Shown here piece by piece: positions 1-64,000 of a stretch of 64,000 bases of DNA. Location of the stretch: assembly GCA_964035545.1 (NCBI GenBank), contig OZ037767.1, forward strand, positions 6,836,707-6,900,706, read 5' to 3'. A model generated the notes under the pieces. That model ran no database searches and was not told the DNA's origin. It was given only the letters and a program-made list of their open reading frames with translations. This stretch comes from Bugula neritina (lineage: Eukaryota > Animalia > Bryozoa). How positions within the stretch are numbered: the first letter of the stretch is position 1; the number at the start of each line of letters is the position of its first letter. The translations under genes and the position numbers were made by a program.

Positions 1-94
1 AACTAACTCGAAGCCGCTAATTGGCTATCAATTGTTCCGGGTCAATTACGCGACCCTATATACTGTGCTGCTGGTAGCTCCACGAGCCACCACA
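1..94 (-). mobile_element. Partial LTR of a Gypsy element related to the 3728-11232 element (runs off the window start)
   Basis: Closely matches the LTR end at ~3950-4032 (cgctaattggctatc..ttgttccgggtcaattacgcgaccct..ccaccaca); followed by ATAT at 95-98; interrupts the LINE RT tail. Confidence 0.85.
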
Positions 95-3727: not shown

Positions 3728-4032
3728 TGTTATATTTTTCAGATTTAGGGTTGATGTGCTATCCAGAGAGTCTATTTATTTACTATAGAACTACACCAGG
3801 ATAAGTCGAGTGAACGAGTATATTTTACACACAATTATACATTATCAAAACGATACATTATCTCCAAACAAGTTACACATCTAATCTATTTCACACTCTA
3901 GCTTCGACTGAGTTAGCAGCGGGAAACTACAATTGCTGCTAACTATCAACTACGCTAATTGGCTATCCATTGTTCCGGGTCAATTACGCGACCCTACATG
4001 TTGTGCTGCTGGTAGTTCCACGAACCACCACA
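3728..4032 (-). repeat. 3' LTR of element 1
   Basis: Direct repeat of 10928-11232; preceded on the minus strand by the G-rich tract GGTGGGGGCGG. Confidence 0.97.
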
Positions 4033-4321
4033 CCGCCCCCACCAGCAGAAAGCCATCTTTCTGATATATACATAAAAAAACATTCATTAGTAACAGCATA
4101 CATCAGTGGACAAAAATAACACATAATATACAGGAAGAGACATAATAATAATACAGAGTCATCGTAACGATCCGTTGCATACAATTGGCCAGCTGTAGAT
4201 AGACGAGGAATACTAGCTAGCTGTGGTGTTAGACAGGGGATAACCTGTTAAGCAGTCAAGCATTTACATGACATCTTGGTTTCTCCCAAGATGTGAAGTT
4301 GCGGGGCATTCTGTGTAGCCA

Positions 4322-5109
4322 CTAGAGTCCTTGTTGGGCACGCCGGTGCTTGGCTTGGCATGTACGCAGTTTCCGTTTCATACGGCATACGGATCCCTTT
4401 AGCTGGAAGAGTCCTGTTGTAGTGTTAAGTAGATCTGGTGCCAGCTGGGTGAACTCTTCTTGTAATCGCCGGAGGCGTTCTTCTACTGTGGCCAGGCGGA
4501 CTGGGTCTGGGGACGGTGTCCGTCTGCGGCGCAGGGGTGGACTGGGGGACCTGGTTCGTCTCTTCGTCGGGGTAGGGGAGATCTCTCCTTCTTCTGGATA
4601 TGTAATTTCCTCGGGGGTGTATGTAATTTGCGGACGGTCAGACACCAACGGGGATTGTTGGCGGGCGTTGTCTAACACACGTTGGAACCCCGAGGACAGA
4701 ACGGCTAACAGCATGGCCTTCTTCACCAGAGGTCGTATAAGTGTGAGGAACTCTGGGTATAGCTTAGCGTCGACCACGTAGTTTTCTCCAGGGAAACAGC
4801 CCGCCGCTCGGTGTCTGGTGACGGGGTAGGGATACACATCATTGTACCCGCAGGGGCAGAATGTTAGTAGGAGATGAGCATTGACGTGTAGTTTAAGGGA
4901 GCGGTGAGAGGCGCAATCTTCACCACAGATCTGGCATCTCGTCCGTCCTCTGGACCCCCAGGCCGTTTCTATTTCTTCCTCTGTTTGTGGAGACACCCAC
5001 CGCCAACGGCGGCGTAGTGGCTCAGGCCGGTCACCACTAGCATACTCCTCCGGATACGGAGCGGGAAGTGTTCTATCCCGTACCCTGGTTGTAGCGGGTC
5101 GAGTGTAAT
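4322..5109 (-). CDS. Element 1 ORF3: tandem zinc-finger / Arg-Ser-Pro-rich / coiled-coil accessory protein (predicted exon 2 of a spliced mRNA; exon 1 = 10896-10854; 276 aa)
   Basis: CQIC-x12-H-x3-H, then CPC-x12-H-x4-C; YVVD..YPEF motif shared with ORFs at ~54630 and ~60025; acceptor TTTTTCAG at 5117-5110; no in-frame ATG upstream of the fingers. Confidence 0.8.
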
Positions 5110-5423
5110 CTGAAAAAGTTTCAACAGTGTTAATACAGTACACTGCTGTGTTGTCAGCTTGAATAGCTTGGCAACTCCTAATTCAGTTACCTCGTAGAGA
5201 TTAATGGTAGTGAATAGTCAGATAGAACACGTATTGCAATGAGATTATAAAAATCTCTAAGTCAAACTGAGTTCTTACTACGGTATTTCACTAACCTATC
5301 TCCAGCTCGATTGACTCAGTGAGTCAGAGCTGAGCGATGCAATCTAGTTTCGTATTAAGATATAGTTAACTCACCCCACGATCTGTTGTCGTAAGACATA
5401 CTGAATGTGTGAAATGGTTTGAA

Positions 5424-6014
5424 CTACTGCTTAGAAACACGTCTACTCCTGACTGCATCAGCGTATGAAAAGATCGAGCAACGTGGTTGGGGTGCGTGAT
5501 TAAGACTTTGTGCACCCGGCGGATGAATTTTATTTCTATTTCCGCCGATACAAAAGTTGATATTTCCGTGGTGTTGACAACTCCCACATTTGCTCGATTC
5601 TTTTCTCGTACGTTTTTCCCCTAGACTTTCCTGTGTGCCGCTTTTAACGCAGTCACATACGAAGTCCTTCAAGTATGCGGGGGGTTGCCTCGTACGCTGT
5701 CCCCTTTCTAGGGGGGGTGACACGCTTGCCGGTTCGTTAGTAGGGGCCTCTAATGGCGTCTCTACTTCACCGTCAGCGGTCACCTCTTCTTGTTCTCCGG
5801 ATGGAGCCCCTCCCTCCGTGGGGGTTTGCACTTCCGGAACCGGCTCGGTTTCTGGAAGTGATGGAATTAGACTTGGCGGTGGCGGACACGCTTCTGTTGA
5901 CAAAAGCTGCCGCTCCTCTCTCACCAAGTTTTCTTCCCGCGGTATGACCACTTCGTATTCAGGTCCATGCCGCCGTCGCCCGCGCGTTGTTGTTTGCCTC
6001 CTGGGCTCTAACAA
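5424..6014 (-). CDS. Frameshifted C-terminal tail of element 1 Pol
   Basis: One extra C in the run at 6016-6021 joins GEAP to PLLEPRRQ (cf. element 2 GQAPLLLEPARQ); contains the typical Gypsy end motif RTRQPPAYLKDF. Confidence 0.75.
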   Translation of the reverse strand: MLEPRRQTTTRGRRRHGPEYEVVIPREENLVREERQLLSTEACPPPPSLIPSLPETEPVPEVQTPTEGGAPSGEQEEVTADGEVETPLEAPTNEPASVSPPLERGQRTRQPPAYLKDFVCDCVKSGTQESLGEKRTRKESSKCGSCQHHGNINFCIGGNRNKIHPPGAQSLNHAPQPRCSIFSYADAVRSRRVSKQ

Positions 6015-9000
6015 CGGGGGGCTTCTCCCACTCCGCCGGGGCTAGCCCAATACGGTTTCAAGCGAGACTCATTCTGGATAGACACCTGTCCTGAGCGCTC
6101 AATCTTGTACGTATGATTGGGCATAGCCTCGACGACCACGTAGGGGCCTACGAACTTAGGCTTCAGCTTATCAGCCTGTCCGCGGCGCCTACGGTAATTG
6201 ACCATCCACACCTTATCTCCTCTTTGATAGAGGGGTGGTTCATCGGAATCTTCGTGCCGCACCTTCCACTGCTGTTGGCGCAGTATCTCGTGTGCGGCCT
6301 TCATCCGTTCCACTAGTTCACTGGCATACTCGTGGACTGAGTTATCTTGCTCTGGAACGTGATAGGTGAGATGGTCGGGGACACGAGTCTCTCTCCCGAG
6401 CATCAAGAGGTTTGGGGTCTCACCAGTACTGGTGTGTGGGGTGCTACGGTATGCACGCATGACTTGCGGCAACACCGTATCCCATTCCTCTTGACCTCGT
6501 CCAAGGAGGAGACTCCGGAGTGCATCACCTAGCATCCGGTTGTTGCGCTCCACCACCCCGTTACCTTGAGGGTGGTAGGGGGTGGTCCTGCTCTGATTTA
6601 CTCCCCAGAGGCGGCAAAGGTCGCTCATCAGTTGAGACTGGAATTGAGCGCCTTGATCAGAGTGTATCTGTTCGGGGAGCCCAAAATAACAGAATACATG
6701 TTGGTCTAGTGCCCTGGCCACTGTTGGGGCTGATGCATCTGGGATAGCCAGAGCATCCGCCCACCTAGTAAAGTGGTCGGTTAGTACTAGGATCCAATTA
6801 TTGCCTCTGGGGGTCAGGGGCATGGGTCCGACCAGGTCTACAGCGACTACTTGCCAGGGCCTACCAGCGTATAGCCTCCGCCGTCCTGCTTCACCAGGGG
6901 GGCGGCTATGCTTACGGGCCTGGCAGATCTCACACTGTTTGACTCTGAGCCGGACATCACGCTCCATTTGTGGCCAATACCACCGGAGTCGTAATTTGGA
7001 CATCACTCGCTTGACCCCTGCGTGGGCCTGCTTGTGAGTATCCCAAATCAACTCACGGCGGATGGCTGTGGGGCAGACTACCCTCTTCCTTTCCGGGTGT
7101 CTGCCGCTGGCAGCTAGAGAGATGGTTAGCAACCCATCCTGCCCGATCCGCAGCGAGTCCCAACGCTGACAGTATAGCCGGAACTCGGCGCATCCCTGTC
7201 GTATGCGTTCCTCGCTGGGTCGTCGCCCTTCCCTTTTGGCCCGGTATATGTCTGCCACGACTCCAGGCAGCTCTTCTTGGAGCTTCTTCAGCTCTCGAAC
7301 ATTACCGGCCAGTACAGGGTTGGCGCGGAGGTTTTGTACATCCTCCGGGGACTCATCAACTCTTTGCCTGAGTTGACCTTGATCCCAGTCAAACGGTGCT
7401 CCGTGATGAGCCAGCGTCTCCAACTCGCATCGTGGGGGACCTCCATCCCTCCTCTCGATGTTGAGACACTGTTTGCAACCTCCGTCAGGTCGGCGACTCA
7501 ACCCATCCGCATTGCTGTGTCTCTTGCCCGGTCGATGTTCGATCCGGTATGAGAATTCAGCTAGGATTTCGAGCCACCGGGCGACCTGACTAGAGGGCTC
7601 TGCTCTCCTGCACAACCAGATCAGCGAGGCATGATCCGTACGCAGCCGGAACTTCCTGCCATATAGGTATGGTCTGAAGTGCTTCACTGACTTGATTACT
7701 GCCAGCAGCTCCTTGCGGGTAGTGCAGTAATTTCGTTCAGCGGGTGAGAGAGACTTGCTGTAGTAGGCTACTACTACCTCTCGGCCTTCCTGCACTTGTG
7801 ACAGCACAGCGCCAACATTTTGGTCACTGGCGTCCGTGTCTAGGATGTACTCCAGAGTGGGGTCTGGGTAGGCCAAGATGGGCGCCGTTAGTAGGCAGCC
7901 CTTGAGGCGGTCGAACGCTTCTTGTTCGACTGGAGTCCACTGCCACGTCACTCCCTTTGCGGTGAGCCGGTTTAACGGCTGGGCTATGCCCGCAAAGTCT
8001 GGTATGTATTGCCTGTAATACCCTACCAGCCCCAAGAAAGCCCGGAGTCCGGTCAAGTCTTGGGGGGTGACCCAGTCTTCTACTGCCCGTACCTTTTCGG
8101 GATCCGTTGCCACGCCGTTTCGACCGACAACGTGCCCCAGATACTTGACCTCCGGCTGCAATAGAGCGCACTTGGAAGGTTTGAGCTTAAGACCGGCACC
8201 TCGGAGTCTCTCGAAAACCTCCTGCAGACGACTGACATGTGTCTCGAAGTCTGGAGAGATTACGATGACATCATCGAGGTAGACCAGCAGTGTCTTCCAA
8301 TGGAGTCCGCTAAGGACTTGTTCCATCAGCCTCTGGAAGGTGGCTGGGGCGGAGGTTAACCCGAAGGGCAGCACCTTCCACTTCCACAAACCGTCCCGTG
8401 TGATAAACGCCGCTTTCTCTTGGGCGTCGGGACTCAGAGGAACCTGCCAATAGCCGCTTAGCAAGTCTAACGTACTGAAGTACTTGCTGCCGGCTAGGGC
8501 GTCCAATGACTCGTCAATACGAGGTAGAGGGTAGGCGTCCTGTATGGTTACGCTATTGAGTTTGCGGTAGTCCACACAGAACCGCCAACTGCCGTCTTTC
8601 TTCCGGACCAGTACGACTGGCGAGCTCCACGCACTATGGGCGGGCTCTATCAGTCCCCGGTCCAGAAGATCCCGTACTTGTCGGCTAACCTCCTTCTCTT
8701 TCTCCGGCCCCAGCCTGCGTGTGGGCTGCCGGACAGGGACTGTCCCTGCAGTCAGCGGTATTTCGTGTCTGACAATTCCAGTCAGTCCCACGTCATGCTC
8801 TCCGCTGCTGAACACATCACCGTAGTCGCGTAGTAACTTGGCCATAGCTTGGCGTTCTCTGTTACTCGCGCAGCCGCCACTGGCTGTTTCGTATAACTCC
8901 CGGAGATGTGTTGGGACTGCCCCTCGTCCCTGAATAGGGCACTGAGGGGGTGCCTCCGTCGCATCACCCAGCGACGGGCCTACGTCTCCCTCCTGAACAG

Positions 9001-9994
9001 AGTGAAAACGGCCCAGCATCGACCCAGCCGGGAGCTTGATAGGCTCGGTAAAGGGGTTGACGCACTGCACTAAGATCTCCCCTTGCTCAGTCAGCTGATT
9101 CAGACTGCTGGCAAGTTGGATCTTTTCGTGCGCGCCTTCAACCACCCCGAGTCCAGAGATCCGGCTACTATTCACCCTGCAGTGAATGGTAGCCCGGGAG
9201 CGGCCTGGTATGATACGGTTGCGTACCACTTGCACACCTCCCACTAAAGGGCGGCCGAACTTGTCGACGCAGGCGAGTTCCCGCCCGGACATCATCATTG
9301 CAGATCTGCTAAAATCTATGTGACATCCGTGCCGTTTAAGGAACGGCATCCCGAGGATAGCATCCTCCTTGAGCTGACTGACGATGAACGTCTCTTGGAT
9401 CGTTTGATCACGGACTCGTCCCGTCAGCTCAATTATACCATAGAAGGGAAGGCACGACCCGTCAGCGAGGGTGCCGTATTCCCCTTCGTATGCTTCCATC
9501 TCGCCCCTGACCCTAGTACTGAGGGTGTCGAAGAGTTGGCGGCTTAAGAGGTTTGTGGTACAGCCCGAATCAATGAGGAAAGTAACAGCTTTGCCTTCCA
9601 GTTTACCGGGCAAGAAATAGCTGTTCCCATGGGGCTGCACCTGAACTCTCCCTTCAGGCCTTACTCTCGCAGGGAGTACCTCCCTCGCTTTGGGTCGCGA
9701 AGGAGGTCTCTTAGGGCGGTGGTAGGTAGGCCTCGGGGGTGCCAAGGCTAGATTCTCAGCTACCTTTGTGTGCTCCCATCCGGATTCTTGGACTTGTAGC
9801 CCTGTGAATCTGTTGTGAAGGGGCATAGAAAAGGCAGCTGCGGGGCGAAGCCCCTTGCTGGTCCGTCGTGGCTGTTGCCACTGTTGGTTGCCAGTACGCG
9901 GTACCCGTCTGGGTGACCTGCGCTTCTTCTTCCCTGGAGGTTTCATCGTCGGCCCGCGGAAGGTGGGAACATCTGCGGGCCGCGGTAGTTTAAC
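6008..9994 (-). CDS. pol: Gypsy Pol (protease, RT, RNase H, integrase), probably made as Gag-Pol by -1 frameshift
   Basis: LIDSGC protease; YLDD RT; DTDAS RNase H; HHCC zinc finger; DDE core (VAVDL, HSDQG, VERNN); GPY/F motif KFVGPY; no chromodomain seen. Confidence 0.97.
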   Translation of the reverse strand, partial: VKLPRPADVPTFRGPTMKPPGKKKRRSPRRVPRTGNQQWQQPRRTSKGLRPAAAFSMPLHNRFTGLQVQESGWEHTKVAENLALAPPRPTYHRPKRPPSRPKAREVLPARVRPEGRVQVQPHGNSYFLPGKLEGKAVTFLIDSGCTTNLLSRQLFDTLSTRVRGEMEAYEGEYGTLADGSCLPFYGIIELTGRVRDQTIQETFIVSQLKEDAILGMPFLKRHGCHIDFSRSAMMMSGRELACVDKFGRPLVGGVQVVRNRIIPGRSRATIHCRVNSSRISGLGVVEGAHEKIQLASSLNQLTEQGEILVQCVNPFTEPIKLPAGSMLGRFHSVQEGDVGPSLGDATEAPPQCPIQGRGAVPTHLRELYETASGGCASNRERQAMAKLLRDYGDVFSSGEHDVGLTGIVRHEIPLTAGTVPVRQPTRRLGPEKEKEVSRQVRDLLDRGLIEPAHSAWSSPVVLVRKKDGSWRFCVDYRKLNSVTIQDAYPLPRIDESLDALAGSKYFSTLDLLSGYWQVPLSPDAQEKAAFITRDGLWKWKVLPFGLTSAPATFQRLMEQVLSGLHWKTLLVYLDDVIVISPDFETHVSRLQEVFERLRGAGLKLKPSKCALLQPEVKYLGHVVGRNGVATDPEKVRAVEDWVTPQDLTGLRAFLGLVGYYRQYIPDFAGIAQPLNRLTAKGVTWQWTPVEQEAFDRLKGCLLTAPILAYPDPTLEYILDTDASDQNVGAVLSQVQEGREVVVAYYSKSLSPAERNYCTTRKELLAVIKSVKHFRPYLYGRKFRLRTDHASLIWLCRRAEPSSQVARWLEILAEFSYRIEHRPGKRHSNADGLSRRPDGGCKQCLNIERRDGGPPRCELETLAHHGAPFDWDQGQLRQRVDESPEDVQNLRANPVLAGNVRELKKLQEELPGVVADIYRAKREGRRPSEERIRQGCAEFRLYCQRWDSLRIGQDGLLTISLAASGRHPERKRVVCPTAIRRELIWDTHKQAHAGVKRVMSKLRLRWYWPQMERDVRLRVKQCEICQARKHSRPPGEAGRRRLYAGRPWQVVAVDLVGPMPLTPRGNNWILVLTDHFTRWADALAIPDASAPTVARALDQHVFCYFGLPEQIHSDQGAQFQSQLMSDLCRLWGVNQSRTTPYHPQGNGVVERNNRMLGDALRSLLLGRGQEEWDTVLPQVMRAYRSTPHTSTGETPNLLMLGRETRVPDHLTYHVPEQDNSVHEYASELVERMKAAHEILRQQQWKVRHEDSDEPPLYQRGDKVWMVNYRRRRGQADKLKPKFVGPYVVVEAMPNHTYKIERSGQVSIQNESRLKPYWASPGGVGEAPRC

Positions 9995-10896
9995 CCCTGA
10001 TTTAGGAAGGGACAATATCGGCGGAAATGTCCTTGATTTCCGCACTCCCAGCAAAAACTGACCGTTTCTCCCTGTGGCGGCGCCGATGGCCGCATGGGCT
10101 CAGGGGCGGTACTCACTGGGTTTTGTGGGGTCAGTGTTGCTATCAGCTTGGCTAGCATGTCCGTCAGTTGAGTGACTTTTGATGCCGTCGCCAACTGGGA
10201 CACGGCAGCCGCGGCGGGGGTTTCCTCCCCTTGTCCCGCGGCCGTGTCTGCGCGGTCTATCTCCACTTGGCGGGAGCTTCCGCGACTTTTATGCATTTGA
10301 TTAGCTAGGAGGTAAGCTTCCCCCTCAGTCAGAGCATCTTCAACGGTGGTGACTCCCCTAGCTAGAAACTGGTGGTGGAGACCCAGATCGTCGACAGATG
10401 CTATGAAAGCGTCGAGGGTATACCTCTCGCGGTTGACTGGGGGCAAGTCGCTGTACGCGATCTGTGCCAGCTTCATGACCGCGGCGGCATGCTCCCGCAG
10501 CGGGGTGCGGGGATCACGCCGCAACCTCTGCAATCGGGCCCTGGCATCTGTAGCAGAGAGGCCAAAGCGGGCCCGCAGAGAAGCAAAGATATTATCAATG
10601 TCTACGCCCAGCCCATAGGGCTTGGCTTTGTCCATCAATGCCATTCTAAGCTTCAGCAAGGCCACCCTAGGGGGCCACTGAGCGACGTCCATTACGTCGC
10701 TAAACTCTTGGATAAATTGTTCCACCTCCTCTTCACCCGTGAAGGTGGGCGCCTTTAACCTGTAGCGGTCCTCAGCTAGTTCTCGCGGAACCCTTCGCTC
10801 TTCTACTACATGGTTAACAGGCATCGTCTCTACAGCATTGTCTCTACGCTCACCTTCGATTGCCGGTGGTTGAGTTCCAGCATTTTCAGTCTCCAT
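9943..10896 (-). CDS. gag: Gypsy Gag (317 aa)
   Basis: ATG just downstream of the PBS; C-terminal CCHC knuckle CWECGNQGHFRRYC; overlaps pol in the -1 frame. Confidence 0.93.
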   Translation of the reverse strand: METENAGTQPPAIEGERRDNAVETMPVNHVVEERRVPRELAEDRYRLKAPTFTGEEEVEQFIQEFSDVMDVAQWPPRVALLKLRMALMDKAKPYGLGVDIDNIFASLRARFGLSATDARARLQRLRRDPRTPLREHAAAVMKLAQIAYSDLPPVNRERYTLDAFIASVDDLGLHHQFLARGVTTVEDALTEGEAYLLANQMHKSRGSSRQVEIDRADTAAGQGEETPAAAAVSQLATASKVTQLTDMLAKLIATLTPQNPVSTAPEPMRPSAPPQGETVSFCWECGNQGHFRRYCPFLNQGLNYRGPQMFPPSAGRR

Positions 10897-10908
10897 CTTG
10901 GATGCACT

Positions 10909-10926
10909 ATCCCACCGCTGCCACCA
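10909..10926 (-). promoter_or_regulatory. Primer binding site, tRNA-Leu
   Basis: TGGTGGCAGCGGTGGGAT, 1 nt from the 5' LTR, complementary to the ..ATCCCACCGCTGCCA-CCA 3' end of tRNA-Leu(AAG-type); same PBS at 51344 and 59584. Confidence 0.85.
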
Positions 10927-10927
10927 C

Positions 10928-11232
10928 TGTTATATTTTTCAGATTTAGGGTTGATGTGCTATCCAGAGAGTCTATTTATTTACTATAGAACTACACCAGG
11001 ATAAGTCGAGTGAACGAGTATATTTTACACACAATTATACATTATCAAAACGATACATTATCTCCAAACAAGTTACACATCTAATCTATTTCACACTCTA
11101 GCTTCGACTGAGTTAGCAGCGGGAAACTACAATTGCTGCTAACTATCAACTACGCTAATTGGCTATCCATTGTTCCGGGTCAATTACGCGACCCTACATG
11201 TTGTGCTGCTGGTAGTTCCACGAACCACCACA
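10928..11232 (-). repeat. 5' LTR of element 1
   Basis: Direct repeat of 3728-4032, adjacent to the PBS. Confidence 0.97.
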
Positions 11233-12562: not shown

Positions 12563-15500
12563 CTAGCTGGGTTTACTGGATGCTTGTTTTCGTTCCTGTG
12601 GACTGAAGTGTAGAATAGTGGCAATAGCATTAAATATTGCTTGTTTACCAACTGGATCTGTCGCAATCATATATCTATATACAATGTTCTTTAGATATTC
12701 TAAATTGATTCCCTCTCTGGACTGAGTTCTGTCTAGCCTTCGGATCTCTTCTTTTAGCACCGCTACAACGGTATTAGCACAATGCTTACATACTAGTAAA
12801 TAGTGTAATAATGAGAAAAGTTGAGAAAAAATGTCTTTATTATAGGTTTACATGTGTGTTGTGTGTACCACAGCAAGTCATTTACCAAGTTGCCAGTTTG
12901 GTGAAAGGCTCAGTCATCAGTCAGCTTAAAGAACCTTCATGTAATTAATTTAATTAAATGATTTATGTAATGAAAAGTTTGATACGTTCAGCTTCATTAT
13001 TATTATTATTTATTTCTGTGTGAACATTGTTGATATAGCCTTAATAGTAACAGGCGTAGTAGTAATACTCAAATTTAGGAAGTAAAAACGTACTTCTTTA
13101 TTATTTAATGCAGTAATAGCCGAGTATCACAGTAATATGAGTACTAATACGTATGAACAGTAGCATGTAGTAACACTGAAGTACCAGAGAAATGAAAGGC
13201 TCTTACATAACTGTTCCAGGTGCTGCTCTTCTTTAAGGCTCATATTAGACCGTAGATCATGAAGCTCGGCCTCCAGATCACGCTTCTGTTTACGCAGTGA
13301 AGTTATTTCAAGATGACTTCTAGAGAGTTCTTGGTGGAAATGTATGAGCTGGTTTGATGATGAAGTGTCAGTGTGAAACAGTTCCTCTACAGGAGATTCT
13401 ACTTCCCCCTTGTTAAAAAGTAGAAGGCTTTTTATAAACTTCACAATTCAAATATAATATAAATTACATTGAGTTCATTTAAAGAAAGATATTGCCAACA
13501 TATGAAATTTTTACATGCATATGTAGATGGAAGGAAACAAAAAATATTCAACAAAGTAATTTCATCTAAATTATTATTGTAAGTATATGTAAGTATAGTA
13601 TATAACTAAATACACATGTAGATGAAAAGGACTTATAGTAAGTATATAATCCTCCTACTTGCTGCTCACTATATGTCTGGATAGTTTGGGACGGCCGTCC
13701 AGGGTGCAGCTTCTCTCTCATCATCTCAATCTCTTTGTCTTTCTCAGCAAGCAGCGTTATTGTCCTGTCTCTATGCTGCCGCAATCTCTGCTCGGCATCA
13801 GAGATTTTTTGATGACATTCTGCTTGGTTAGCAGACAACTCCTAAACAGAAATAAAAACCCAGTTTTAAAGTGTGCAACCCATTCCTAAGCAAAAGCCTA
13901 AAAATAAAAAGCGTAAAATATAACAATACATTAAAAGGCAAAATCCCAATGCATTTATTCAAAAGTCTGACAATTCTAAATTAATGAGTTTTCAGAAAGA
14001 CTACTATTGAAATAGAAAATAATCACTTGAGAGAAGACAACTCCTTAAAGTTATTATGATTATGTTGAATTGTAATGTTTGTCAACAGAACAAGCAATAT
14101 TTTAAAATATTTTAGATGCCATTTGCCAACTCTGTCATTACTTTATGGGTAAGACATAAAAAAAATTGATAAATGCATTCTAATACTGGAAAGTCGATAT
14201 AACAGCTATAGCTGCCAAGCTGCAAACTCACGGAATTTGGTTTGAAAGACCAGGAAATGATGTACAGTGAAAAATGAATTTTTTTTAAATGCTTCAGTAT
14301 AAGCTGAACAGAATTTCCACCTGTTTATGTATAGAATGCAGGTTGGTTATAGATTGACGTAACTCTGCTATAGTTTGTTGAGACAGGTGATCATCAGTTT
14401 GATGTTTCTCAAAGCTACCTCGTAGCCTCTCTTTCAGTTCTATGATTGTATTCCTCAGATCCTCAACTTCTTTGCTGTTATTCTGATCCTGCCATATCAA
14501 TTCATAACCAAAATACAGAGAAATAAACTCACACGCAATTAACTAACAATACTTAGCTTTTCTATTCACAATGAGTTAATTAGGAATCCTTTCACCCAAC
14601 CTGATGCAATCAGCTTATACCTTGGAACTTTTGTTTTTAAGCACAGACTGAGCCCGAAGCTTATATCTCTCAAACTCTTCTTTCAATTGAGAATATTCTT
14701 CATCACACTTTTTGTGGAGTCGAGTTTCGTCCATGAATATCTCACCAACCACAACTGCAGTACAAAAAGCAGATGGTATAAATACTTTTGATGCATGTAC
14801 CAAATGACAAATTTGCAGCTCAAACGGATCTCAAATAAAATCCTTACTATTATATTCGAGATGAGAGTGTTGCACTTCACAAGCCTGCTGTAATGAGGTC
14901 TTTAGATGCTTGAGTTTGTCAACTAACTCCTCTATTCCAAGGTTAGTATCATCAAGAGAGGGATTAGCTACTTTAGCAAGTGCTGTGTTTTCCTGATCCA
15001 ACTGCAAAAAAACAGGTATACATCTAATGACTTAGATAAATAGGTACACATGCTAGAACTTGTACAAAAGGTGACGTCCGTACAACAAATCAACGATTGT
15101 AATATAGACATATATCACATAATATAGACATATATCACATAATATAGACATATATCACTTAGCAATATAGATAAAGACTACATAGCAGTATAGATATAGA
15201 CTACATAGCAATATAGATATAGACTACATAGCAATATAGACATAGACTACATAGCAATATAGATAGAGACTATATAGTAATATAGATATAGAATACTTAG
15301 CAATATAGATATAGACTACATAGCAATATAGATATAGACCACTTAGCAATATAGATATAGACTAAAACAAACAGGCAGCTAAATTACTCACGACAAGCAA
15401 CCATTACACAAATTGAAACGGTACAAACCAACAACTAACCTGTGTAACTCTTTCCTTGAGTTTCTGTATGGAGATCTGGTCAGTGTACTTCAGTTTCTCA

Positions 15501-50862: not shown

Positions 50863-51533
50863 GTAAGTTTTGGAGAATAAATTATTTCTGTATTTAGATT
50901 GTGACTGTTACTCTTTGTAAGATTGATTGGTTTATTATATTGTAATGGATTTGCCCAAATATATTATGTTCTTTTTTTTGTAAGTAGAGTTATGTTCCCT
51001 CGCACTCGTTTTTCTTTTTATTATATGTGAGCCGAGACTCGTGCCAAGTCGGAGACCGAAGACACGATGTCGGAGGGACCTGCCCGAGATCGGGCAGGAC
51101 TCCCTCCGATGTCGGTCGGCGGAACTCCGACGTTCGTACGAGTTTCGAACCCCCATTAGTGGCGGGAACTCCCCTATATATAAGTGCGAGTTTTTCAAAG
51201 CTAAGTCATTATTGTACGGGAGCTCAAAGAAGAAAGAAGCAATAAATACTCTTAAATTTACAATTATCAAGACTCTTTATTTTATCACAATAATTGGCAT
51301 GCAGACTACTAGTCTATTCTCATAACCCACAAAAACACAACATTGGTGGCAGCGGTGGGATAAGAATAGACTAGTACGACAAGCAGCCATTAGAGAGAAA
51401 TAAGAAACAGAACAATTGGGGAAGAAGGAGAAGTAGAAGTCATGAGGGAAGAAGTAGAAGAAGGGGACCGTCTCACCATGGAGATTCTCATATCGGCCCT
51501 CCGAGAGGTCGGGAAGACCGGACAGGCAGCACC

Positions 51534-53705
51534 ATCCTGGACACCGACGCCAGTGACCACAGTGTGGGAGCTGTTCTGTCTCAAGTCCAGGGTGGAAGTG
51601 AGGTGGTCGTAGCTTACTACAGCAAGACTCTCGCGGCCGCCGAGAAAAACTACTGCACTACTAGGAAGGAACTCCTAGCAGTAGTCAAGGCGGTTAAGCA
51701 CTTTCGGCCATATCTGTATGGGAGAACGTTCCGGTTGCGAACAGACCATGCATCACTGATATGGCTGTGTAAACGTGTAGAGCCCTCGAGTCAGGTGGCT
51801 CGTTGGCTAGAGATTCTTGCAGAGTTCTCCTACCGGATAGAGCACCGTGCCGGCAAGAAGCACGGGAACGCTGATGGCATGAGTCGCCGACCGGTAGAGA
51901 ACTGCAAGCAATGCCTGCACATCGAGAAACGTGATGGGGGACCTGATCGCTTTGACGTCGAGGCACAGTTGGGGGACGGCAACGTCTATCGTTGGGAGCA
52001 CGGCCATCTTCGGCCTGAAACCCACTCCAACGACGTCCAGGCACTCTGTGCTAACCCCACACTGTACCAGAACGTCAAGGAGCTGTGTCGACTGCAAGAA
52101 ACACTCCCTGGATCAGTAGCTGACATCTTCCGGGCCAAGAAAGAAGGCAGGCGGCCCTCGGAGGAACAGCAAAGACAAGGAGACGCTGAATTTCAGTTCT
52201 TCTGCCGCCGCTGGAATTCTCTCCAGATTCGTTCGGACGGTCTCCTGACGATGACCCTCGCAGCAGACAACCGACAACAGGAGAGAGATCGCGTCGTATG
52301 CCCACGCGCCCTCCGTCGAGAAATCATCTGGGACACCCACAAACAGGCCCATGCGGGAGCCAGTCGGGTCATCAGATGCCTACGGATGCGATGGTACTGG
52401 CCCGGAATGACCAGGGATGTGAGACTGAAAATCCGGCAGTGCGAAGTCTGCCAGGCCAGCAAGCACGGGCGCCCCACCGAGACCACGGGTCGGCGCCGGC
52501 TGTACGCCGGTCGACCCTGGCAGGTCGTAGCCGTAGACCTTGTGGGACCAATGCCCATGACGGAGAGGGGGAATTCCTGGATTCTGGTCTTAACAGACCA
52601 CTTCACACGGTGGGCAGACGCCCTGGCCATCCCCGACGCAACGGCTCCCACGATAGCTAGGGTCCTGGACCAGCACGTGTTCTGCTACTTCGGCCTGCCT
52701 GAACAGATCCACACTGACCAAGGCGCACAATTTCAGTCACAACTGTTGAAGGACCTTTGCCAAGTATGGGGGGTGAATCAGAGCCGGACCACTCCGTACC
52801 ACCCTCAAGGAAACGGAGTAGTTGAGAGAAATAACCGAATGTTGGGTGATGCCCTCCGTAGCCTCTTGCTGGGAAGGAGCCAAGAGGAGTGGGACGTCAT
52901 GCTACCACAGATCGTGCGAGCATATCGAAGTACCCCCCACTCCAGCACGCAGGAAACACCTAATCTGATGATGTTGGGCCGTGAAACCAGGGTACCGGAA
53001 CACCTCGCTTACCATATTCCGAATCCGGAATTCCCGGTACATGAATACGTGGGAAAGCTAGTCGAAACCATGAAGAGAGCCCATGACGCACTGAGAGAGA
53101 AACAGTGGATGGTACGGGCAGAAGACTCCGAGGAACCTCCCCTATACCGCGAGGGAGACTGGATGTGGATGGTCAGCTACCGCAGGCGGCGCGGACAATC
53201 GGCTAAATTACAGCCTAAGTTCGTCGGGCCCTACTGCATGGTAGAGGTCTTACCAAACCATACATATCGTGTGGAACGCTCAGGGCAGATATCTGTCCAA
53301 AACGAGCAGCGGTTAAAACCTTACCACGGAAGCCCAGAGGCTGCGGGACAGGCACCACTACTGCTGGAACCAGCACGCCAGCCCATATCCCGTAGGAGGA
53401 GGAATCTACCCAGGGAGTGGGAAATAATTGTTCGTGATCCTGGAGAAGTCCGAGACACCCCCGACGCCCCGCCACAGAACCTGCCACCTGCTCTACATAC
53501 CCCTGACTCACCCAGCCGGACCAACCAACCAGAGGCATCAACCACGCCAACACAGGCCCCAGAGAACCTTCCCTTGCCACCGACACCTGTCTCAGAAGAC
53601 ATACCCCCCCCCCCCGCCGAACACCCCAGGCCAACCAAACAGCCCTACCAACCTCACTCTGGGGAGAGGAAAAAGAGACAAGAAACTACCGAGTTACTTG
53701 GCTGA
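51534..53705 (+). pseudogene. pol: Truncated pol (RNase H + integrase)
   Basis: Highly similar to the element 1 Pol C-terminal half; frameshift in the C-run at ~53604-53615 before RGKRDKKLPSYLADY. Confidence 0.92.
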
Positions 53706-54331
53706 CTATCAAGTGGGGTGCGTGGCTGAACCTTACTCTTCGAATCATTCATTCCAACTGAATACGAATTCAGACTGTCATCTCGGGCCGACCATAAACA
53801 CACCAACTATTCAAGAAATTCAAGACCGAAATTCGGAGCCAGCCCGACATCCGGAGTTGTCTGATTCAACTGACCACTTGACCAGTCACGTGATCGGCGA
53901 TCCCACGAGTTTTAAAATTAAAATTCAAAACTCGGCCATTTGCACTTCAACTCTGAATGACGAAGCACGCTATTTAAAACTCAAATCAGAAAACTTGATA
54001 GACATGGAGCCTGTTACAACCGAACAAACCCAACTCACTACGAGATCAGGTATTTCTAGCATACTAAAACCTCCCTTCACGGAGTATAGTAGCTCTTTCG
54101 ACTCATTTTCACCCGACTATCAGTGGGAAAATGAGTTGTTCTTTGACAACACAGGTCAGGGCGATTCAGAAGAGTCCCCAGTCCACGACTACCTGCTGGA
54201 TCAGGAGGTTGGACGGGTGTCTCTTCGGCTATCACCTGACCTACCCATTTGTCAAAGAGTGCCTTACAAGGAGATGCCGAAATTCGGCAATCTTACGGCC
54301 AGGTCACCAAGACCTCTATTTTCTATTGCAG

Positions 54332-55215
54332 AAGCCATGGAATGTGAGGAGGTCGGGGCGAGTCGTACTGACTCCCCGGCCACCGTGATTCCTGACCCGG
54401 CTGCTACCAGCCCACCCGAAGTTCCGATGCCGGAGCCTACACTCACCACCCAGCCAGAAGCAAGTACCCCCCCTCCGGTCGACGGCTCCCCGTCCGGTGA
54501 GGGTTCTCAGTTGAAGGAGGAGCCCCTGTACCAGCAGCTGGCTCTCCCCCAGATCTCAACGGAGCGACCCCACTGGACCACGGCAGAAACCCGTGCTAAA
54601 ATAGAGCGGGACTGTGGAGAGGCCGGCAACTGCAAGTGCCGCCAATGTAGTAGAAAGTTTACTACCAGGCGACTGCGAGTGCACGTGCCCCAACACTACA
54701 CCAACGTTTTCTGCCCGTGTGGCGAATTCTCTTTCCAAAGAGATTACGTGCTGAGGCACCAGCGAATAGCCCGCTGCCACACGGGTCAAATATTCGTTGT
54801 CGACGAGGCAACATTCCCCGAATTCCGGGATTTGATCCTCCCTCATATTTGTGACCCCCACAAACGGGTGACACTCGCCCAGGGGTTTCCGGCATGCCGC
54901 CCAACACAGGAAACCACTGACGAGGAGGCACCACCCACAGCCCGGCCAGCTGTCACCCGACCTCTCCGGGTTGTGTTGGCTAGGGTCGACGGGAATGGAG
55001 AGAGGGCCCAACAGGTAGCCGGCCACAAGAGAAGAAGGCGCCAGGATCCCAGAACCCCGGTTTCCACCCCAACCCCAGCAGTGCCGACACGATGCCCCCA
55101 TGAGGCTGAAGTTCTCCGGCTCCGCCGCCAGGTACGCCGGCTAGAAGATGACCTTTACGCTGTCCGCCGCCGTCTGGACAGACTGGAGGACCGCAGAAGT
55201 GACCGCCGCAACTAG
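54332..55215 (+). CDS. Element 2 ORF3: tandem zinc-finger / coiled-coil accessory protein (intact; frame open upstream into the Pol tail)
   Basis: Acceptor TTTTCTATTGCAG ending 54331, ATG at 54337; CRQC-x11-H-x3-H, CPC-x12-H-x5-C, FVVD..FPEF, HKRRRR, terminal heptads EVLRLRRQVRRLEDDL. Confidence 0.82.
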
Positions 55216-55970
55216 AATACGACCCATAACAATCAACCAGCTCAAACTGTACTTTCTTTATTTTTTTATCTGTAACTACTTGTACACCCCAAGATATTGT
55301 TTTTTTATATATTTGTATATTTGTTCTTTTTTTATGTGTGTATCGGAAAGAGATACTTTCCGATAGGGGGTGTGTGTAATGGATTTGCCCAAATATATTA
55401 TGTTCTTTTTTTTTGTAAGTAGAGTTATGTTCCCTCGCACTCGTTTTTCTTTTTATTATATGTGAGCCGAGACTCGTGCCAAGTCGGAGACCGAAGACAC
55501 GATGTCGGAGGGACCTGCCCGAGATCGGGCAGGACTCCCTCCGATGTCGGTCGGCGGAACTCCGACGTTCGTACGAGTTTCGGACCCCCATTAGTGGCGG
55601 GAATTCCCCTATATATAAGTGCGAGTTTTTCAAAGCTAAGTCATTATTGTACGGGAGCTCAAAGAAGAAAGAAGCAATAAATACTCTTAAATTTACAATT
55701 ATCAAGACTCTTTATTTTATCACAATAATTGGCATGCAGACTACTAGTCTATTCTCATAACCCACAAAAACACAACAATATACCATACTACTGAAATGCC
55801 ATATTGTAACATGAAACACATGACACAATTATAATAACATACCTAAAATGTATATGATTTCTAGGCATACAACATAACTTTATTTATATAATCAATGTTG
55901 CCTGTGGTCAAAATAGTTAATAATTATCTGAAAGTTGAAATAAAAATAAATATATTTTTATTATTTTCAG

Positions 55971-59189: not shown

Positions 59190-61284
59190 TGTGGTAAATT
59201 TATGTTGTGTGAGTGTGTCCTTGGTTGCCGAGATCGGCACTTCGGTCCTCCGAAACACCGATATGCCGATTCTCGGCATATCGCCGATTCTCGGCATATC
59301 GCCGATTCTCGGCATATCGGACTACCGAAGTGCCGAGATGCCAAATTCGGTATTTCGGGCCTCCGATCTCGGCAAACAAAGGAATGTCTTTGTCCTGTGT
59401 GTATATAAAAGCCAGCGAGTTTCAGTGTAGATTCAGTGTACTACTGGAGCTCGCTGGATACAGACTATTGGATCATTCGGACTACAATAAAGCTACCTTA
59501 TCTTCTACCTTATTTCTCGCCTTGTTTCTCATAACAAGCATGTAGAGCACTAGTTTCATTCATAATCCACAAAACTATCACATTGGTGGCAGCGGTGGGA
59601 TTCTACGAATAGCTAGTTGCTGAGAGGAATAGGATGGCCCCAGGGGACTCAGCCCTGATAGTGAGACCGGCTTATCACGGCCTCTACTATCTATTCTAGA
59701 GGAGCGTATGGACACCGAGGAGGCCAGTCAGTCCGACTCCCCTCTCCCACCGGCTCCTGCTTCGGCTTCTCACAGCCAGCAGGACGCCACCTCCTCCACA
59801 GAGGTGTGTTCCGCCATCGTTAGTGGCCCTGACCCCAAACCGGTCGAGCTTTAGCTCATGGCCGGGGAGGAGCAGGGCATCTTACACGGCGACCACCTCG
59901 CAGCCGAAGAAGATGACTCCCCAATACTGGCCCTGCCTCGGGCCCTGGTCGCCCGCCAGTATTGGGTGACTGGACCCACCAATCTTAGGATTGGTGAAGC
60001 TTGCGGTGAGCTGGGCAACCGCATCTGCCACCAGTGCCAGAGGAAGTTCTCCTCTGCACGGCGGTTGCGTGTACACGCCCCACAGCACGACATCAACGTG
60101 TTTTGCCCGTGTGGCGAATTCTCTTACCAGAGAGACTATGTGCTGAGGCATCAGCGCATAGCTCACTGCCACACGGGCTACACGTTCGCTGTAAACCAGG
60201 CCTCCTTTCCCGAGTTTCGGGACCCGGTATTGCCACACGTGGCGGATCCCCATAAACGGGCTGCTCTCGCCCTGGGATTCCCCGCGTGTAGGCCTGTTCG
60301 TGAAGAAGGGGAGCCCGCCGCGACACCCCAACCGGCAGTCACCCAACCACTTCGGGTCCTGCTGGCACGGGTCGGATCAGGCGCCAGGACCGATTCATCG
60401 GACCTGGGCCCCCGGCCCTTGGCGGCGGGTGAGAAGCAGAGGAGACGTCCCAGTCACAGTACCACCGACCGCCCCAGACGTCGGCCCAATTGGAAGAAGA
60501 GGTGCGCCACCTACGCAGGCGGCTCCGCAGGTACGAGGAGGAGTTGGGGCAACTCAGGAGACGCGTGAGCCGCCTGGAGCGGGACCAATCTGGGGACCGC
60601 CGATGAGACTTTGTATATATATTTTTTTTCTTTTGATCTTATTTTCTTTGTTTTCTTTATGTGTGTGTGCATTCTTTCATGTAGTGTTATGTACTTATCC
60701 GTTACTCTGTTTTTTTTCTCATGTGTGCACAATTCTCTTTGTTTTTTTTGTTATCACTGCATGACTGCCGTATATTGTTTTTTTTGTGTGTATTGCTTGT
60801 CAACTGTGTGTTTTATTGTCGTGTCATATTCTGTTTGTGTGATTGTTGTTTGTGTACGCCTCTTTATCGGAAAGCATGCTTTCCGATGGGGGGGTGTGTG
60901 TGGTAAATTTATGTTGTGTGTGTGTGTCCTTGGTTGCCGAGATCGGCACTTCGGTCCTCCGAAACACCGATATGCCGATTCTTGGCATATCGGACTACCG
61001 AAGTGCCGAGATGCTAAATTCGGCATTTCGGATTCCCGAAATGCCGATATTCGGCATTTCGGGCCTCCGATCTCGGCAAACAAAGGAATGTCTTTGTCCT
61101 GTGTGTATATAAAAGCCAGCGAGTTTCAGTGTAGATTCAGTCTACTACTGGAGCTCGCTGGATAGACTATTGGATCATTCGGACTACAATAAAGCTACCT
61201 TATCTTCTACCTTATTTCTCGCCTTGTTTCTCATAACAAGCATGTAGAGCACTAGTTTCATTCATAACCCACAAAACTATCACA
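59190..61284 (+). mobile_element. 2.1-kb non-autonomous Gypsy derivative (element 3) carrying only ORF3
   Basis: LTRs 59190-59582 and 60899-61284; ATAT TSD 59186-59189/61285-61288; tRNA-Leu PBS at 59584; G-rich PPT; no recognisable gag/pol domains. Confidence 0.95.
59700..60606 (+). pseudogene. Element 3 ORF3 zinc-finger gene with one nonsense codon and one frameshift
   Basis: CHQC-x12-H-x3-H, FCPCGEFSYQRDYVLRHQRIAHC; TAG at 59852 (CAG in the 63 kb homolog); coiled coil EEEVRHLRRRLRRYEEEL..DRR* is in another frame after ~60470. Confidence 0.85.
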
Positions 61285-61787: not shown

Positions 61788-64000
61788 GTCTTGCCATCAA
61801 GATGTACCAGCCCTACAGACTGAGAGACTGATCACTACAGAACACGCAGTTGAGTTAACAAACAGAATAATAGAAGGCAGTAGGAGTTACAAGCAAGTAG
61901 TGACAGAAAACGAATAAATAACATTACTGGCAATGTTATATATGTAGTGAAAGCAAAATACACAAATGGTGTTATGAAATGAGATATGAGCTTAACGCTA
62001 GTATAAAAACAAATTTAAGAGCAACTCAAGTGAATGGCACGAACTTTATCTCAACCAGAAGAAAAAGTTTAATATGAAAAAGTAATGGATTAAAGGAAAT
62101 TGAAATAATTTTAATGAAACATGCAAGCTTTGTAAATTTGTGAGTTACTCAATATGAATTTGAAAACTTATCTGAAAGTAAAATAATTGTCAACCCACAT
62201 GAAAAGTAAAAAACAGATCCCCTTTTTCCAAGTGACCGAGCACTACTGCAAGAGCTGAAAGAAAAGTCAAGAGGTCAACGTAGCAGTGAAAACCAATGAC
62301 AATGTAGAGGACAGCCATAATTAAAACATTCCATACAGCAAGAACAATAGGGACAGTACCAACAGATATCAAACAGATCAGAAACTTCAAGACAAACATT
62401 GAACCAGATACAGTGGAGTAACTATATGAATTATCTTTTGAACAAAACCAGATAATCAATTTCTTCAACAGGCAGGTAAAAATTCTGAACCACGAGGCTC
62501 GGCCATTGCTACTACAGATACCACGTGGGTAACAGGTGATTCAAATTTGAAATTTAATTCAATTCCTGACATACGAAACTTGACTATGGGAATCACACTT
62601 CCAGAAGCTACTAACACTTCAGCAGATATTCCTTTAAGGTTGGATCCTCCGTGTACGGAGTCCAACCAATCTACTATTGACTGGTCTTTACTAGATTCTT
62701 TAGAATCTAACTTGGAACCTGAGACCGAGATGGATCTCGGAGACGACCCTGTCCATGACTTCTTGTTAGATCGAGACGTGGGCTCGGTTACTCTGTGACC
62801 CATTTCGGCCCCCAGTTTGTAACCTAGCTCCTTACAAGCGCATGCCGAATTTCGGCGATAGCGAGATCGGCTTGCCACAGCCTCTCCTATCTGTTTTAAG
62901 GAGACAGTGTGGATGTTGAGGAGGTTGAAGCGAGTTGTATCTACTTCCCTCCCCCACCGGCCCCTGTTCCGGCTCCTAGCAGCCAGCAGGGCGCCACTCT
63001 TCCCGCAGCGCCAATGGCCCTGACTCTAATCCGGTAGAGCTTCAGCTCACCGCCGGGGAGGAGCAAGGCATACTGCTCGGCGAGGACCCCGCAGACAGAG
63101 AGAAGGACAACTCCCCAATACTGGCTCTACCTCTACCTCACTCTAATATTTCTCTTTGTGGATGTATATATATCCACTGACTGAGAAGAGGTAGAAGAGA
63201 GAAGATATAGAAGAGAGCAGCTGAAAAGTGAGACGAAGACTTCCAAACCACACAACCCCAGAATACCTGTTCCTGCAGAAACTTACACAAGAATAAGATA
63301 ATCTATTGATCCTTTATATGTAATATTACATTTAATATCATCAACGCAAAGCCAAGCGAGTAGATAATTATTGTAGGTATAATAAAAATTACTTGAAATA
63401 GTTATAAAAAAATTGAGAAGGCAACTATATTTGGTCCCAACATTCAATCTTACCAATATGTATAGTGGTTTTTACATTGAGATATAAGGTGTTTTTTTAC
63501 GTTTATGAAAATATTTAACAAAGGCTCAGTCAGTTGTATCTACCACCTAGCATAAAAAAGCTATTTTATGTGAAATTATTCAAAAAAATGAGGGGTGTAG
63601 TGAAAAGCAAAACAAAAGAAAAAACAACACTACAACAGGCGGAAGATCAGCCACAGTGTCATCAAAATGTATGCAAGTTTGTACACTACTTTAATAAACA
63701 TGCTCAGGAGTCCCTAGTTGGAAATTCCAATGAAAAAATTCAAGAATATAATTTTACACACCATCAAACTTTGCCACAAGTAATGCTTCTGGGTTGTGCA
63801 ATGCCATGATCAGGAAATATCCAAGGCTAAAAATCAGCAGTATCAAAACTTTGTATGAGTTTACAAGAAATGATGTACGAAATGTCAGAAGAACTTGGAA
63901 TAAAAAATATTTCATTAGATTCTTCAAAAGACGCAATTAGATTCAATTACAATAATTATTAAAAAATGCATACAGTTTACATGATAAAGTGATGAATTTG
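61788..64000 (+). pseudogene. Second, more decayed copy of the MULE transposase, interrupted at ~62468-63450
   Basis: ITTEHAVELTNRIIEG, PFFPSDRALLQELKEKS, QNVCKFVHYFN, NSNEKIQEYNF match 55971-57400. Confidence 0.85.
62468..63130 (+). mobile_element. Internal remnant of the same Gypsy group (Pol tail / ORF3 5' part)
   Basis: PVHDFLLDRDVGSVTL matches element 2 PVHDYLLDQEVGRVSL; ~62857-63130 aligns with ~59657-59935. Confidence 0.82.

What the first reader, a model, noticed from the sequence alone, without database searches (positions are those of the whole stretch)
4322..10896. Gypsy elements with a spliced, env-position accessory gene encoding a tandem zinc-finger / Arg-rich / coiled-coil protein
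Seen: three divergent elements (4322-5109 minus, 54332-55215, 59700-60606) share an ORF between pol and the 3' LTR. Shared motifs are C-x2-C-x11/12-H-x3-H, an unusual F-C-P-C-x12-H-x4/5-C finger, V(D/N)..PEF..GF, a basic patch and a terminal coiled coil; no signal peptide or TM helix is visible, so it is not Env. In element 1 the ORF has no upstream ATG, but the gag donor GAAG|GTGAGC (10854/10853, after 14 codons + 1 nt) joins the acceptor TTTTTCAG| (5110/5109) in frame, giving METENAGTQPPAIE-DYTRP.. (276 aa). Known: errantiviruses express env from a spliced subgenomic RNA at this position. Inference: a nuclear regulatory protein (transactivator, Rev-like RNA factor or anti-silencing factor) in a 'complex' Gypsy lineage. 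I do not recognise a described family for it.
Basis: partly seen in the sequence, partly recalled or inferred. Interest (0 to 1): 0.92.

Follow-up and report, generated by a model that had tools for sequence, protein, structure and literature searches.

The report
Gypsy retrotransposon's own zinc-finger regulator
A lineage of animal Gypsy retrotransposons carries, where retroviruses keep their envelope gene, a conserved zinc-finger gene that is likely spliced onto the start of gag and likely encodes a transcription factor predicted to control the element's own promoter, a kind of self-regulation known from complex retroviruses but not found for Gypsy elements in the papers searched.

Summary
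Three Gypsy elements and a fourth fragment carry a post-pol ORF under purifying selection (dN/dS about 0.10), part of an unnamed family of 357 clusters at 50% identity. The splice is independently supported: a database protein of a sister family starts with 14 residues identical to a Gag N-terminus and switches to the ORF at the predicted point; no junction read was seen. The two fingers sit in one confidently predicted 130-residue domain with no whole-domain match; only the finger pair overlays tandem DNA-binding C2H2 pairs, weakly. Element 1's family makes only a short form without that segment, and element 2's family keeps an internal in-phase acceptor that would give the same short form. 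Best reading: an element-encoded LTR regulator (about 0.5); rivals are Rev/CERV-like RNA export (0.22) and anti-silencing (0.15). Named relatives are bryozoan proteins. Function is untested; Repbase and Dfam could not be searched.

The parts
10928..11232 (-). Element 1, 5' LTR (305 bp, TG..CA; identical to the 3' LTR; ATAT target duplication)
10909..10926 (-). Primer-binding site, same 18-mer in elements 1-3; tRNA-Leu-like (assignment recalled, not tested)
9943..10896 (-). gag (317 aa, one CCHC knuckle); its first 43 nt are the predicted first exon of the accessory mRNA
10848..10857 (-). Predicted phase-1 splice donor, cut 10854|10853
   Evidence: best of 409 GT sites; E-G-E peptide in 34 of 41 gags long enough to test; junction matched by P0020/P0140
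6008..10099 (-). pol frame (protease, RT, RNase H, integrase, SH3-like), overlapping gag in another frame; ends before the Pro-rich tail
5700..5950 (-). Stably folding stretch inside the predicted intron (z -4.1 sense, -3.7 antisense); the like-placed stretch of element 2 does not fold (z +0.4)
5110..5122 (-). Predicted splice acceptor, cut 5110|5109
   Evidence: 11 of 12 family-1 relatives that reach this point read F/L-S-D/G there, the twelfth is P0020
4322..5109 (-). Accessory gene, exon 2 (family 1, short form without acidic segment)
4640..5029 (-). 130-residue core: helix, C2H2 finger, C-x-C..H..C finger, strand and helices; one compact predicted domain
   Evidence: pLDDT 90.5, pTM 0.83; eight ligands kept in 92-100% of aligned rows
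4328..4486 (-). C-terminal long helix (coiled-coil pattern) ending in a basic stretch
3728..4032 (-). Element 1, 3' LTR, preceded by a G-rich polypurine tract (about 4033-4043)
50941..51342 (+). Element 2, 5' LTR (397 of 399 aligned bases equal to the 3' LTR); ATAT duplication
51375..53705 (+). Element 2 remnant: gag start joined by an internal deletion to RNase H-integrase and its tail
54004..55215 (+). Element 2 accessory ORF, long form (403 aa, own ATG; family 2)
54073..54216 (+). Acidic-activation-domain-like segment (residues 24-71)
   Evidence: published rule met by 10 tiles; dN/dS 0.19 over 54 codons against copy 4
54319..54334 (+). Internal phase-1 acceptor, cut 54331|54332, that would give a short form without the acidic segment
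   Evidence: third best of 353 AG sites in element 2, best outside the LTRs; matching peptide in 7 relatives
55375..55777 (+). Element 2, 3' LTR; 55467-55583 is one long inverted repeat ending just upstream of the TATA box
   Evidence: (z -9.7)
59190..61284 (+). Element 3: non-autonomous LTR element (LTRs 59190-59582, 60899-61284, with arrays of CCGA/TCGG inverted repeats upstream of the TATA box) holding only acceptor 59699|59700 and a broken accessory ORF (59709-60606)
62465..63150 (+). Fourth, broken copy: N-terminal part of a family-2 accessory ORF
1..92 (-). Start of another family-1 LTR, again beside ATAT, running off the window

Best explanation
This Gypsy lineage carries a conserved third gene between pol and the 3' LTR that is likely spliced onto the first 14 codons of gag and likely encodes a zinc-finger transcription factor predicted to bind the element's own LTR. 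Shown: conserved ORF, purifying selection, finger pair in one predicted domain, C-terminal coiled-coil pattern, a natural Gag-leader fusion at the predicted junction. Inferred: the long form (elements 2-4 and distant relatives: acidic segment, fingers, coiled coil) dimerises, binds the inverted repeats upstream of the TATA box and recruits coactivators, so the element switches itself on, as foamy-virus Tas does. The short spliced form (the only form in element 1's family, and an alternative in family 2) keeps fingers and coiled coil but lacks the acidic segment and would occupy the same kind of site without activating, damping or tuning expression. LTR binding, dimerisation, activation and the opposite roles of the two forms are all untested.
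For: Splice: P0020's first 14 residues equal the N-terminus of Gag P0140 (14 of 14; score 73, best of 42,802 control positions 25) and the switch falls exactly at the predicted junction; it is the only one of 85 proteins examined with a 10-of-10 Gag match. Donor peptide E-G-E in 34 of 41 gags. Selection: elements 2 vs 3, 165 codons, dN/dS 0.10, shifted-frame controls 1.65 and 1.00. Breadth: 46 and 33 relatives; 357 clusters at E<=0.001; P0345 has RNase H-integrase (56% identical to element 1) followed by the domain in one frame, P0299 a Gypsy protease. Activation signature: published rule (PMC10550315, eq. 1) met by 9 of 28 non-redundant long N-termini, shuffles mean 0.53, max 3; 0 of 120 gags; 1 of 11 C-termini; relaxed rule 17 of 28 vs 6.4. 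Fingers: profile's best PDB hits are SALL3/SALL4 fingers (E 7e-5); model residues about 22-80 overlay Kaiso, SALL4, ZBTB38 and CTCF pairs (Z 3.1-3.7, rmsd 2.7-3.1, 50-57 residues); helix positions are conserved across 99 sequences. Coiled-coil pattern in 75 of 96 C-termini vs 10% in shuffles. LTRs of elements 2 and 3 hold 10-19 CCGA/TCGG words vs about 2 expected (max 8 in 500 shuffles), in near-pure Watson-Crick inverted repeats that fold on both strands (3-4 G-U of 54-63 pairs).
Against: Element 1's own protein has no acidic segment by either rule (2 of 47 family-1 proteins meet the relaxed rule) and its LTR has no CCGA/TCGG words or TATAWA box, so for the element the finding is about, the activator role does not apply directly. 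Structural overlays are at Z below 4, tied with unrelated helical bundles; Foldseek has no match at E<=0.001. The activation rule has a precision of 0.2-0.7 in human factors and 19 of 28 long N-termini fail the strict rule. The inverted repeats would also be long RNA hairpins at the 3' end of the transcript. No junction among the 15 shown of 58 joints, and the one RNA run does not cover either splice site. P0020's DNA was not seen, so the junction is known to the codon, not the base. How the long form's mRNA is made is unknown. dS is near saturation (about 3).
Confidence: 0.5

Rival explanations
1. Rev/Rec/CERV-like RNA factor: the spliced product returns to the nucleus, binds a structured element in the unspliced genomic RNA and licenses its export, so splicing and genome output balance each other.
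For: Same gene logic as Cer1 CERV: spliced, shares gag's start, nuclear, Cys-rich, multimeric (PMC10309623). A strong donor 43 nt into gag creates an export problem. Folded stretch in element 1's intron (z -4.1), long U3 hairpin in element 2 (z -9.7). Basic C-terminal helix in 25 of 47 family-1 proteins, many of the others being truncated. Fits family 1, which has no acidic segment.
Against: Class-1 export-signal pattern in 12 of 28 N-termini vs 13.8 in shuffles; 0 of 28 family-1 proteins outside the core. The intronic fold is absent at the like place in element 2 and nearly as strong on the other strand. Does not explain the acidic-hydrophobic clusters.
Confidence: 0.22
2. Anti-silencing factor: the finger pair finds the element's CpG-rich LTR and keeps host methylation or heterochromatin off it, in the way plant VANC proteins do for their transposons (recalled).
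For: Host DNA is CpG-depleted (o/e 0.39) while LTRs are not (0.91-1.25); LTR words of family 2 contain CpG; best finger overlays include methyl-CpG binders Kaiso and ZBTB38. Overlaps mechanistically with the best explanation.
Against: Overlays are not specific (Z 3.2-3.7). Young insertions keep CpG anyway. No known anti-silencing domain was matched.
Confidence: 0.15
3. Integration-targeting or particle component: the Gag-leader fusion travels with the particle and steers integration to AT-rich DNA.
For: All four insertions sit at ATAT; finger 1 resembles AT-reading SALL fingers; P0345 encodes the domain in frame with integrase.
Against: Target-duplication preference is usually set by integrase (established knowledge); an acidic activation signature is not needed; in-frame read-through may be chance absence of a stop.
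Confidence: 0.07
4. A captured host gene carried as a passenger, with no role for the element.
For: Relatives are annotated as genes in Watersipora and Bugula, two of them alignable outside the fingers (27%, E 2e-19).
Against: Purifying selection between element copies, splice sites built into gag, hundreds of diverged clusters. A host origin is possible, but not mere hitch-hiking.
Confidence: 0.03

Closest known systems
CERV of C. elegans Cer1 (PMC10309623)
   Same: Gypsy-class element; accessory protein from a spliced mRNA that shares gag's start; nuclear, Cys-rich, with coiled-coil helices.
   Different: CERV has five exons, a possible C4 finger and a G-protein-like domain, no homology outside nematodes, and exports RNA. 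Here: one short gag leader, env position, C2H2 plus C-x-C..H..C pair, acidic segment. No sequence comparison with CERV was run.
Foamy-virus Tas/Bel1 (PMC517496, PMC7828637); HTLV Tax/HBZ (recalled)
   Same: 3'-encoded regulator; Tas binds response elements in the LTR, has an acidic activation domain and recruits p300/PCAF. This is what the family most likely works like.
   Different: Those are Retroviridae with env; Tas's acidic domain is C-terminal and it is not described as a C2H2 protein in the passages read; no structural match in the viral library.
Env/ORF3 of errantiviruses and non-env ORF3s of rotifer LTR elements (PMC13524379, PMC5408684)
   Same: Same position; ORF3s typically come from spliced messages; non-env cargo (GDSL esterase, DEDDy exonuclease, coiled-coil, TM) is known.
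   Different: No membrane segment, no enzyme motif; zinc fingers are not mentioned in the main text of either paper.
sORF1 of Drosophila MDG1-group elements (PMC11952523)
   Same: Accessory Gypsy protein found in a subnuclear compartment, predicted helix-turn-helix, function unknown.
   Different: About 110 aa, upstream of gag, unspliced, different fold.
Host tandem C2H2 factors (SALL, Kaiso, ZBTB38, CTCF)
   Same: Finger 1 is a canonical C2H2; finger spacing overlays their pairs.
   Different: Second finger has a C-x-C knuckle and a terminal Cys, the linker is 5 hydrophobic residues, and both are embedded in a larger helical domain without a match.

Membership tests
Ty3/Gypsy (Metaviridae) LTR retrotransposon | LTRs, PBS, PPT, gag, pol in the order PR-RT-RH-IN | tested here: met
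Errantivirus (env-bearing Gypsy) | Third ORF between pol and 3' LTR from a spliced RNA | tested here: met
   position; splice inferred
Errantivirus (env-bearing Gypsy) | ORF3 is a membrane fusogen with transmembrane helix | tested here: not met
   best hydropathy window 1.51; zinc-finger fold; no Env family hit
CERV-type RNA-export protein | Spliced, shares N-terminal exon(s) with gag | tested here: met
   (protein level, sister family)
CERV-type RNA-export protein | Sequence or fold homology to CERV H/M/G domains | tested here: inconclusive
   no CERV sequence or model in the libraries searched; ligand pattern differs from the C4 loop described
CERV-type RNA-export protein | Required for export of unspliced genomic RNA | not testable with these tools
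   needs an experiment
Rev/Rec/Rex-like exporters | Leu-rich nuclear export signal | tested here: inconclusive
   pattern not enriched, 12 of 28 vs 13.8; 0 of 28 in family 1 outside the core; pattern scans miss real signals
Tas/Tax-like viral transactivators (works-like claim) | Acidic activation domain | tested here: inconclusive
   signature enriched in long forms (9 of 28 vs 0.5), absent in element 1; prediction only
Tas/Tax-like viral transactivators (works-like claim) | Binds and activates the LTR | not testable with these tools
   needs reporter and binding assays
Classical C2H2 zinc finger (PF00096) | C-x2-C-x12-H-x3-H with F/L core, above Pfam cut-off | tested here: inconclusive
   pattern present and conserved in finger 1; scores 13-19 bits, below the 25.2 cut-off
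Any named Pfam family for the whole core | Match above gathering score | tested here: not met
   no family at gathering score for the window's ORFs or 22 aligned members; of 28 distant hits one reached zf-C2H2_4 and one a protease cut-off outside the core

The most novel reading that the evidence does not exclude
A widespread marine-invertebrate Gypsy lineage is a 'complex' retrotransposon with its own sequence-specific transcription factor, made as a long activator and a gag-leader-spliced short antagonist that together form a feedback switch on the LTR; the spliced RNA is itself retrotransposed, and the gene has been domesticated as a host factor in bryozoans.
Probability: 0.2. Interest if true: 0.92.

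Novelty: new variant of a known kind. Interest (0 to 1): 0.74.

Why it matters
LTR retrotransposons are thought to rely on host transcription factors; self-encoded transactivators are a mark of complex retroviruses. A Gypsy lineage with its own finger-pair regulator would be an independent invention of that logic, would give a testable link between transposons and new C2H2-type host genes (the bryozoan relatives), and adds an unnamed, foldable domain with hundreds of diverged members. Even under the Rev-like rival it would be a second, unrelated solution to the export problem solved by CERV.

Tried and rejected
No genome is held for the window, so copy number and flanks of relatives could not be read. 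Scans for related loci found nothing: viral contigs, metagenome contigs twice; two scans could not start for lack of a conserved stretch. Sequencing runs: 2 listed; the RNA run gave 21 short contigs, one inside exon 2 (4743-4961), none across either splice site, and may hold DNA; no junction among 15 shown of 58 joints, so neither presence nor absence of splicing follows; a closer look at the acceptor was not obtained. Full-length fold was poor (pLDDT 51); only the core folded. Foldseek PDB and viral: no match at E<=0.001; VIA-align best Z 3.8, none at 5 or above among 48,161 chains; absence does not show a new fold. ESM Atlas: only unnamed clusters and generic C2H2 hits. Weak bZIP hits (MafG, C/EBP, E 0.25-1) rejected as coiled-coil composition. 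Env and fusogen rejected. Export-signal enrichment tested and not found. Element 3 considered as a retrocopy of the spliced RNA and rejected: it keeps the acceptor and about 40 nt of upstream sequence. Dimer prediction was not run, so dimerisation rests on the heptad pattern alone. Rfam: one marginal hit elsewhere in the window. Earlier scan notes: nothing. Literature searches showed no description of this gene; Repbase, Dfam, GyDB and subscription papers were not searchable and no supplements were read, so an existing annotation may be missed.


Full report
The element. The window is AT-rich animal-like DNA with no genome held. Element 1 (3728-11232, minus) has identical 305-bp LTRs, an ATAT target duplication, a primer site, gag, and pol in Gypsy order; its best solved relative is Ty3 Gag-Pol. 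Its pol frame stops at 6008, short of a Pro-rich tail that follows integrase in frame in element 2. Element 2 (50941-55777) has lost most of gag to RT; element 3 (59190-61284) holds nothing but the accessory ORF, broken by a stop and a frameshift; a fourth fragment lies near 62465-63150. All share the primer site where it is present, and ATAT flanks.

The gene is real. Two searches gave 46 and 33 relatives, none with a Pfam domain or name; the two families align with 99.6% probability over 121 columns. A joint profile found 357 clusters at 50% identity, of which the best 150 were listed and examined. The eight Cys/His ligands are kept in 92-100% of aligned rows of 66 sequences. Between elements 2 and 3, dN/dS is 0.10 over 165 codons, with dS near saturation, against 1.65 and 1.00 in shifted frames. 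Distant members remain tied to this Gypsy lineage: P0345 has RNase H and integrase, 56% identical to element 1, followed by the domain in one frame; P0299 carries a Gypsy protease. Of 30 proteins looked up for names, three clusters carry an organism name, all bryozoan: Watersipora subatra (XP_067944745.1; XP_067940964.1/63.1, with two copies of the domain) and Bugula neritina (KAF6040922.1). Two of these align outside the fingers (27%, E 2e-19), which suggests a shared host gene; whether they lie in elements could not be checked, and the direction of transfer is open.

The splice. The donor is the best of 409 GT sites in element 1 and is phase-compatible with the acceptor (276 aa); the acceptor itself is not among the top 12 of 564 AG sites by a crude score. 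Conservation argues for both: of 12 family-1 relatives reaching the acceptor, 11 read F/L-S-D/G there, and 34 of 41 testable gags keep E-G-E at the donor in an otherwise variable linker. The twelfth relative, P0020 (a 5320-bp contig), begins with 14 residues identical to the N-terminus of Gag P0140 and then enters the ORF at the conserved D, exactly the predicted junction (control maximum 25 against 73). It is the only such case among 85 proteins. A retrocopy of the spliced RNA is the simplest source; its DNA was not seen. Reads did not help: the RNA run covers neither site and no junction is among the 15 shown of 58 joints. Family 2 therefore likely has a long and a short form; its donor cannot be tested here because gag is deleted.

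The protein. The whole exon folds poorly, but residues 28-157 form one confident domain (pLDDT 90.5, pTM 0.83, 3 of 5 models). Nothing matches it as a whole. Finger 1 resembles SALL fingers in sequence and the pair overlays tandem DNA-binding pairs at Z 3.1-3.7, no better than unrelated bundles. A coiled-coil pattern ends 75 of 96 proteins (10% in shuffles). There is no membrane segment in element 1. The new observation is the N-terminus: of 28 non-redundant relatives with 120 or more residues before the core (34 before collapsing), 9 meet the published acidic-activation rule against 0.53 in shuffles and 0 of 120 gags; 17 meet a relaxed form without the lower charge bound against 6.4 (rules read in PMC10550315). 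Element 2 is positive, element 1 negative. In a tree of 86 cores (146 before collapsing at 70%, few columns, midpoint root), family 1 sits on a long branch inside a supported group whose other members include acidic N-termini, so loss of that segment is inferred, subject to the root.

The LTRs. Elements 2 and 3 carry 10-19 CCGA/TCGG words in inverted repeats just upstream of the TATA box (about 2 expected); in element 2 they form one long hairpin (z -9.7), almost free of G-U pairs and stable on both strands, so they fit DNA palindromes as well as RNA stems. Element 1's LTR has none of these words.

Mechanism. Acidic segment, finger pair and coiled coil make a transcription-factor layout; the most likely role is regulation of the element's LTR (0.5), the long form activating and the short form competing. 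All binding and activity steps are inferred. Rev/CERV-like export (0.22) fits family 1, its intronic fold (not shared by element 2) and basic tail, but export-signal patterns are not enriched. Anti-silencing (0.15) fits a CpG-depleted host.

Comparison. CERV shows that a Gypsy element can make a spliced nuclear regulator sharing gag's start (PMC10309623; abstract and passages seen). Rotifer elements carry non-env ORF3s from spliced messages (PMC5408684; passages). MDG1 sORF1 is nuclear (PMC11952523; passages and section 7). Tas is an LTR-binding acidic activator (PMC517496, start of abstract and passages; PMC7828637, legends). Term searches in the main text of PMC13524379 and PMC8556966 found no zinc-finger mention, and PMC12440569 mentions only the Gag knuckle. 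Tax, HBZ, Rev, Rec, VANC and the tRNA-Leu assignment are recalled. Eight topic searches (listings only unless named above) showed no description of this gene; repeat databases and supplements were not seen.

Verdict. Observation confirmed and extended; a new protein family in a known position with a known kind of splice; novelty: new variant of a known kind; interest 0.74.

Noticed in passing
window 3724-3727/11233-11236, 50937-50940/55778-55781, 59186-59189/61285-61288, 93-96: All four LTR insertions of two divergent families sit at ATAT, a strong target preference.
   Followed up: partly
window 38107-41786 (-): Non-LTR element with an intact-looking endonuclease-RT ORF2 (961 aa) and an ORF1 that hits Baculo_FP_2nd (PF25298, E 4e-12).
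   Followed up: no
window 56000-58150 and 61800-62300 (+): Two diverged copies (76-79% alike in blocks) of a broken transposase-like region with a SWIM finger; element 3 and the fourth ORF fragment lie between or inside them.
   Followed up: no
window 32413-33129 (+): Host-like exon beginning with a WW domain (E 2e-4) followed by a Ser-rich region.
   Followed up: no
window 59190-61284: Non-autonomous LTR element that kept only the accessory gene and its acceptor, now broken.
   Followed up: partly
P0341/P0206 and P0222: Proteins with two tandem copies of the core domain; P0341/P0206 are annotated Watersipora genes with isoforms, candidates for domestication.
   Followed up: partly
window 12000-37000: CpG observed/expected 0.39, suggesting a methylated host genome.
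   Followed up: no
window 15100-15364; 24297-24366 with 25157-25226; 713-1348; 40754-40829: 23-bp minisatellite; 70-bp inverted repeat pair 790 bp apart; RT fragment; marginal SNORD36 hit (E 0.59) inside the LINE, likely chance.
   Followed up: no
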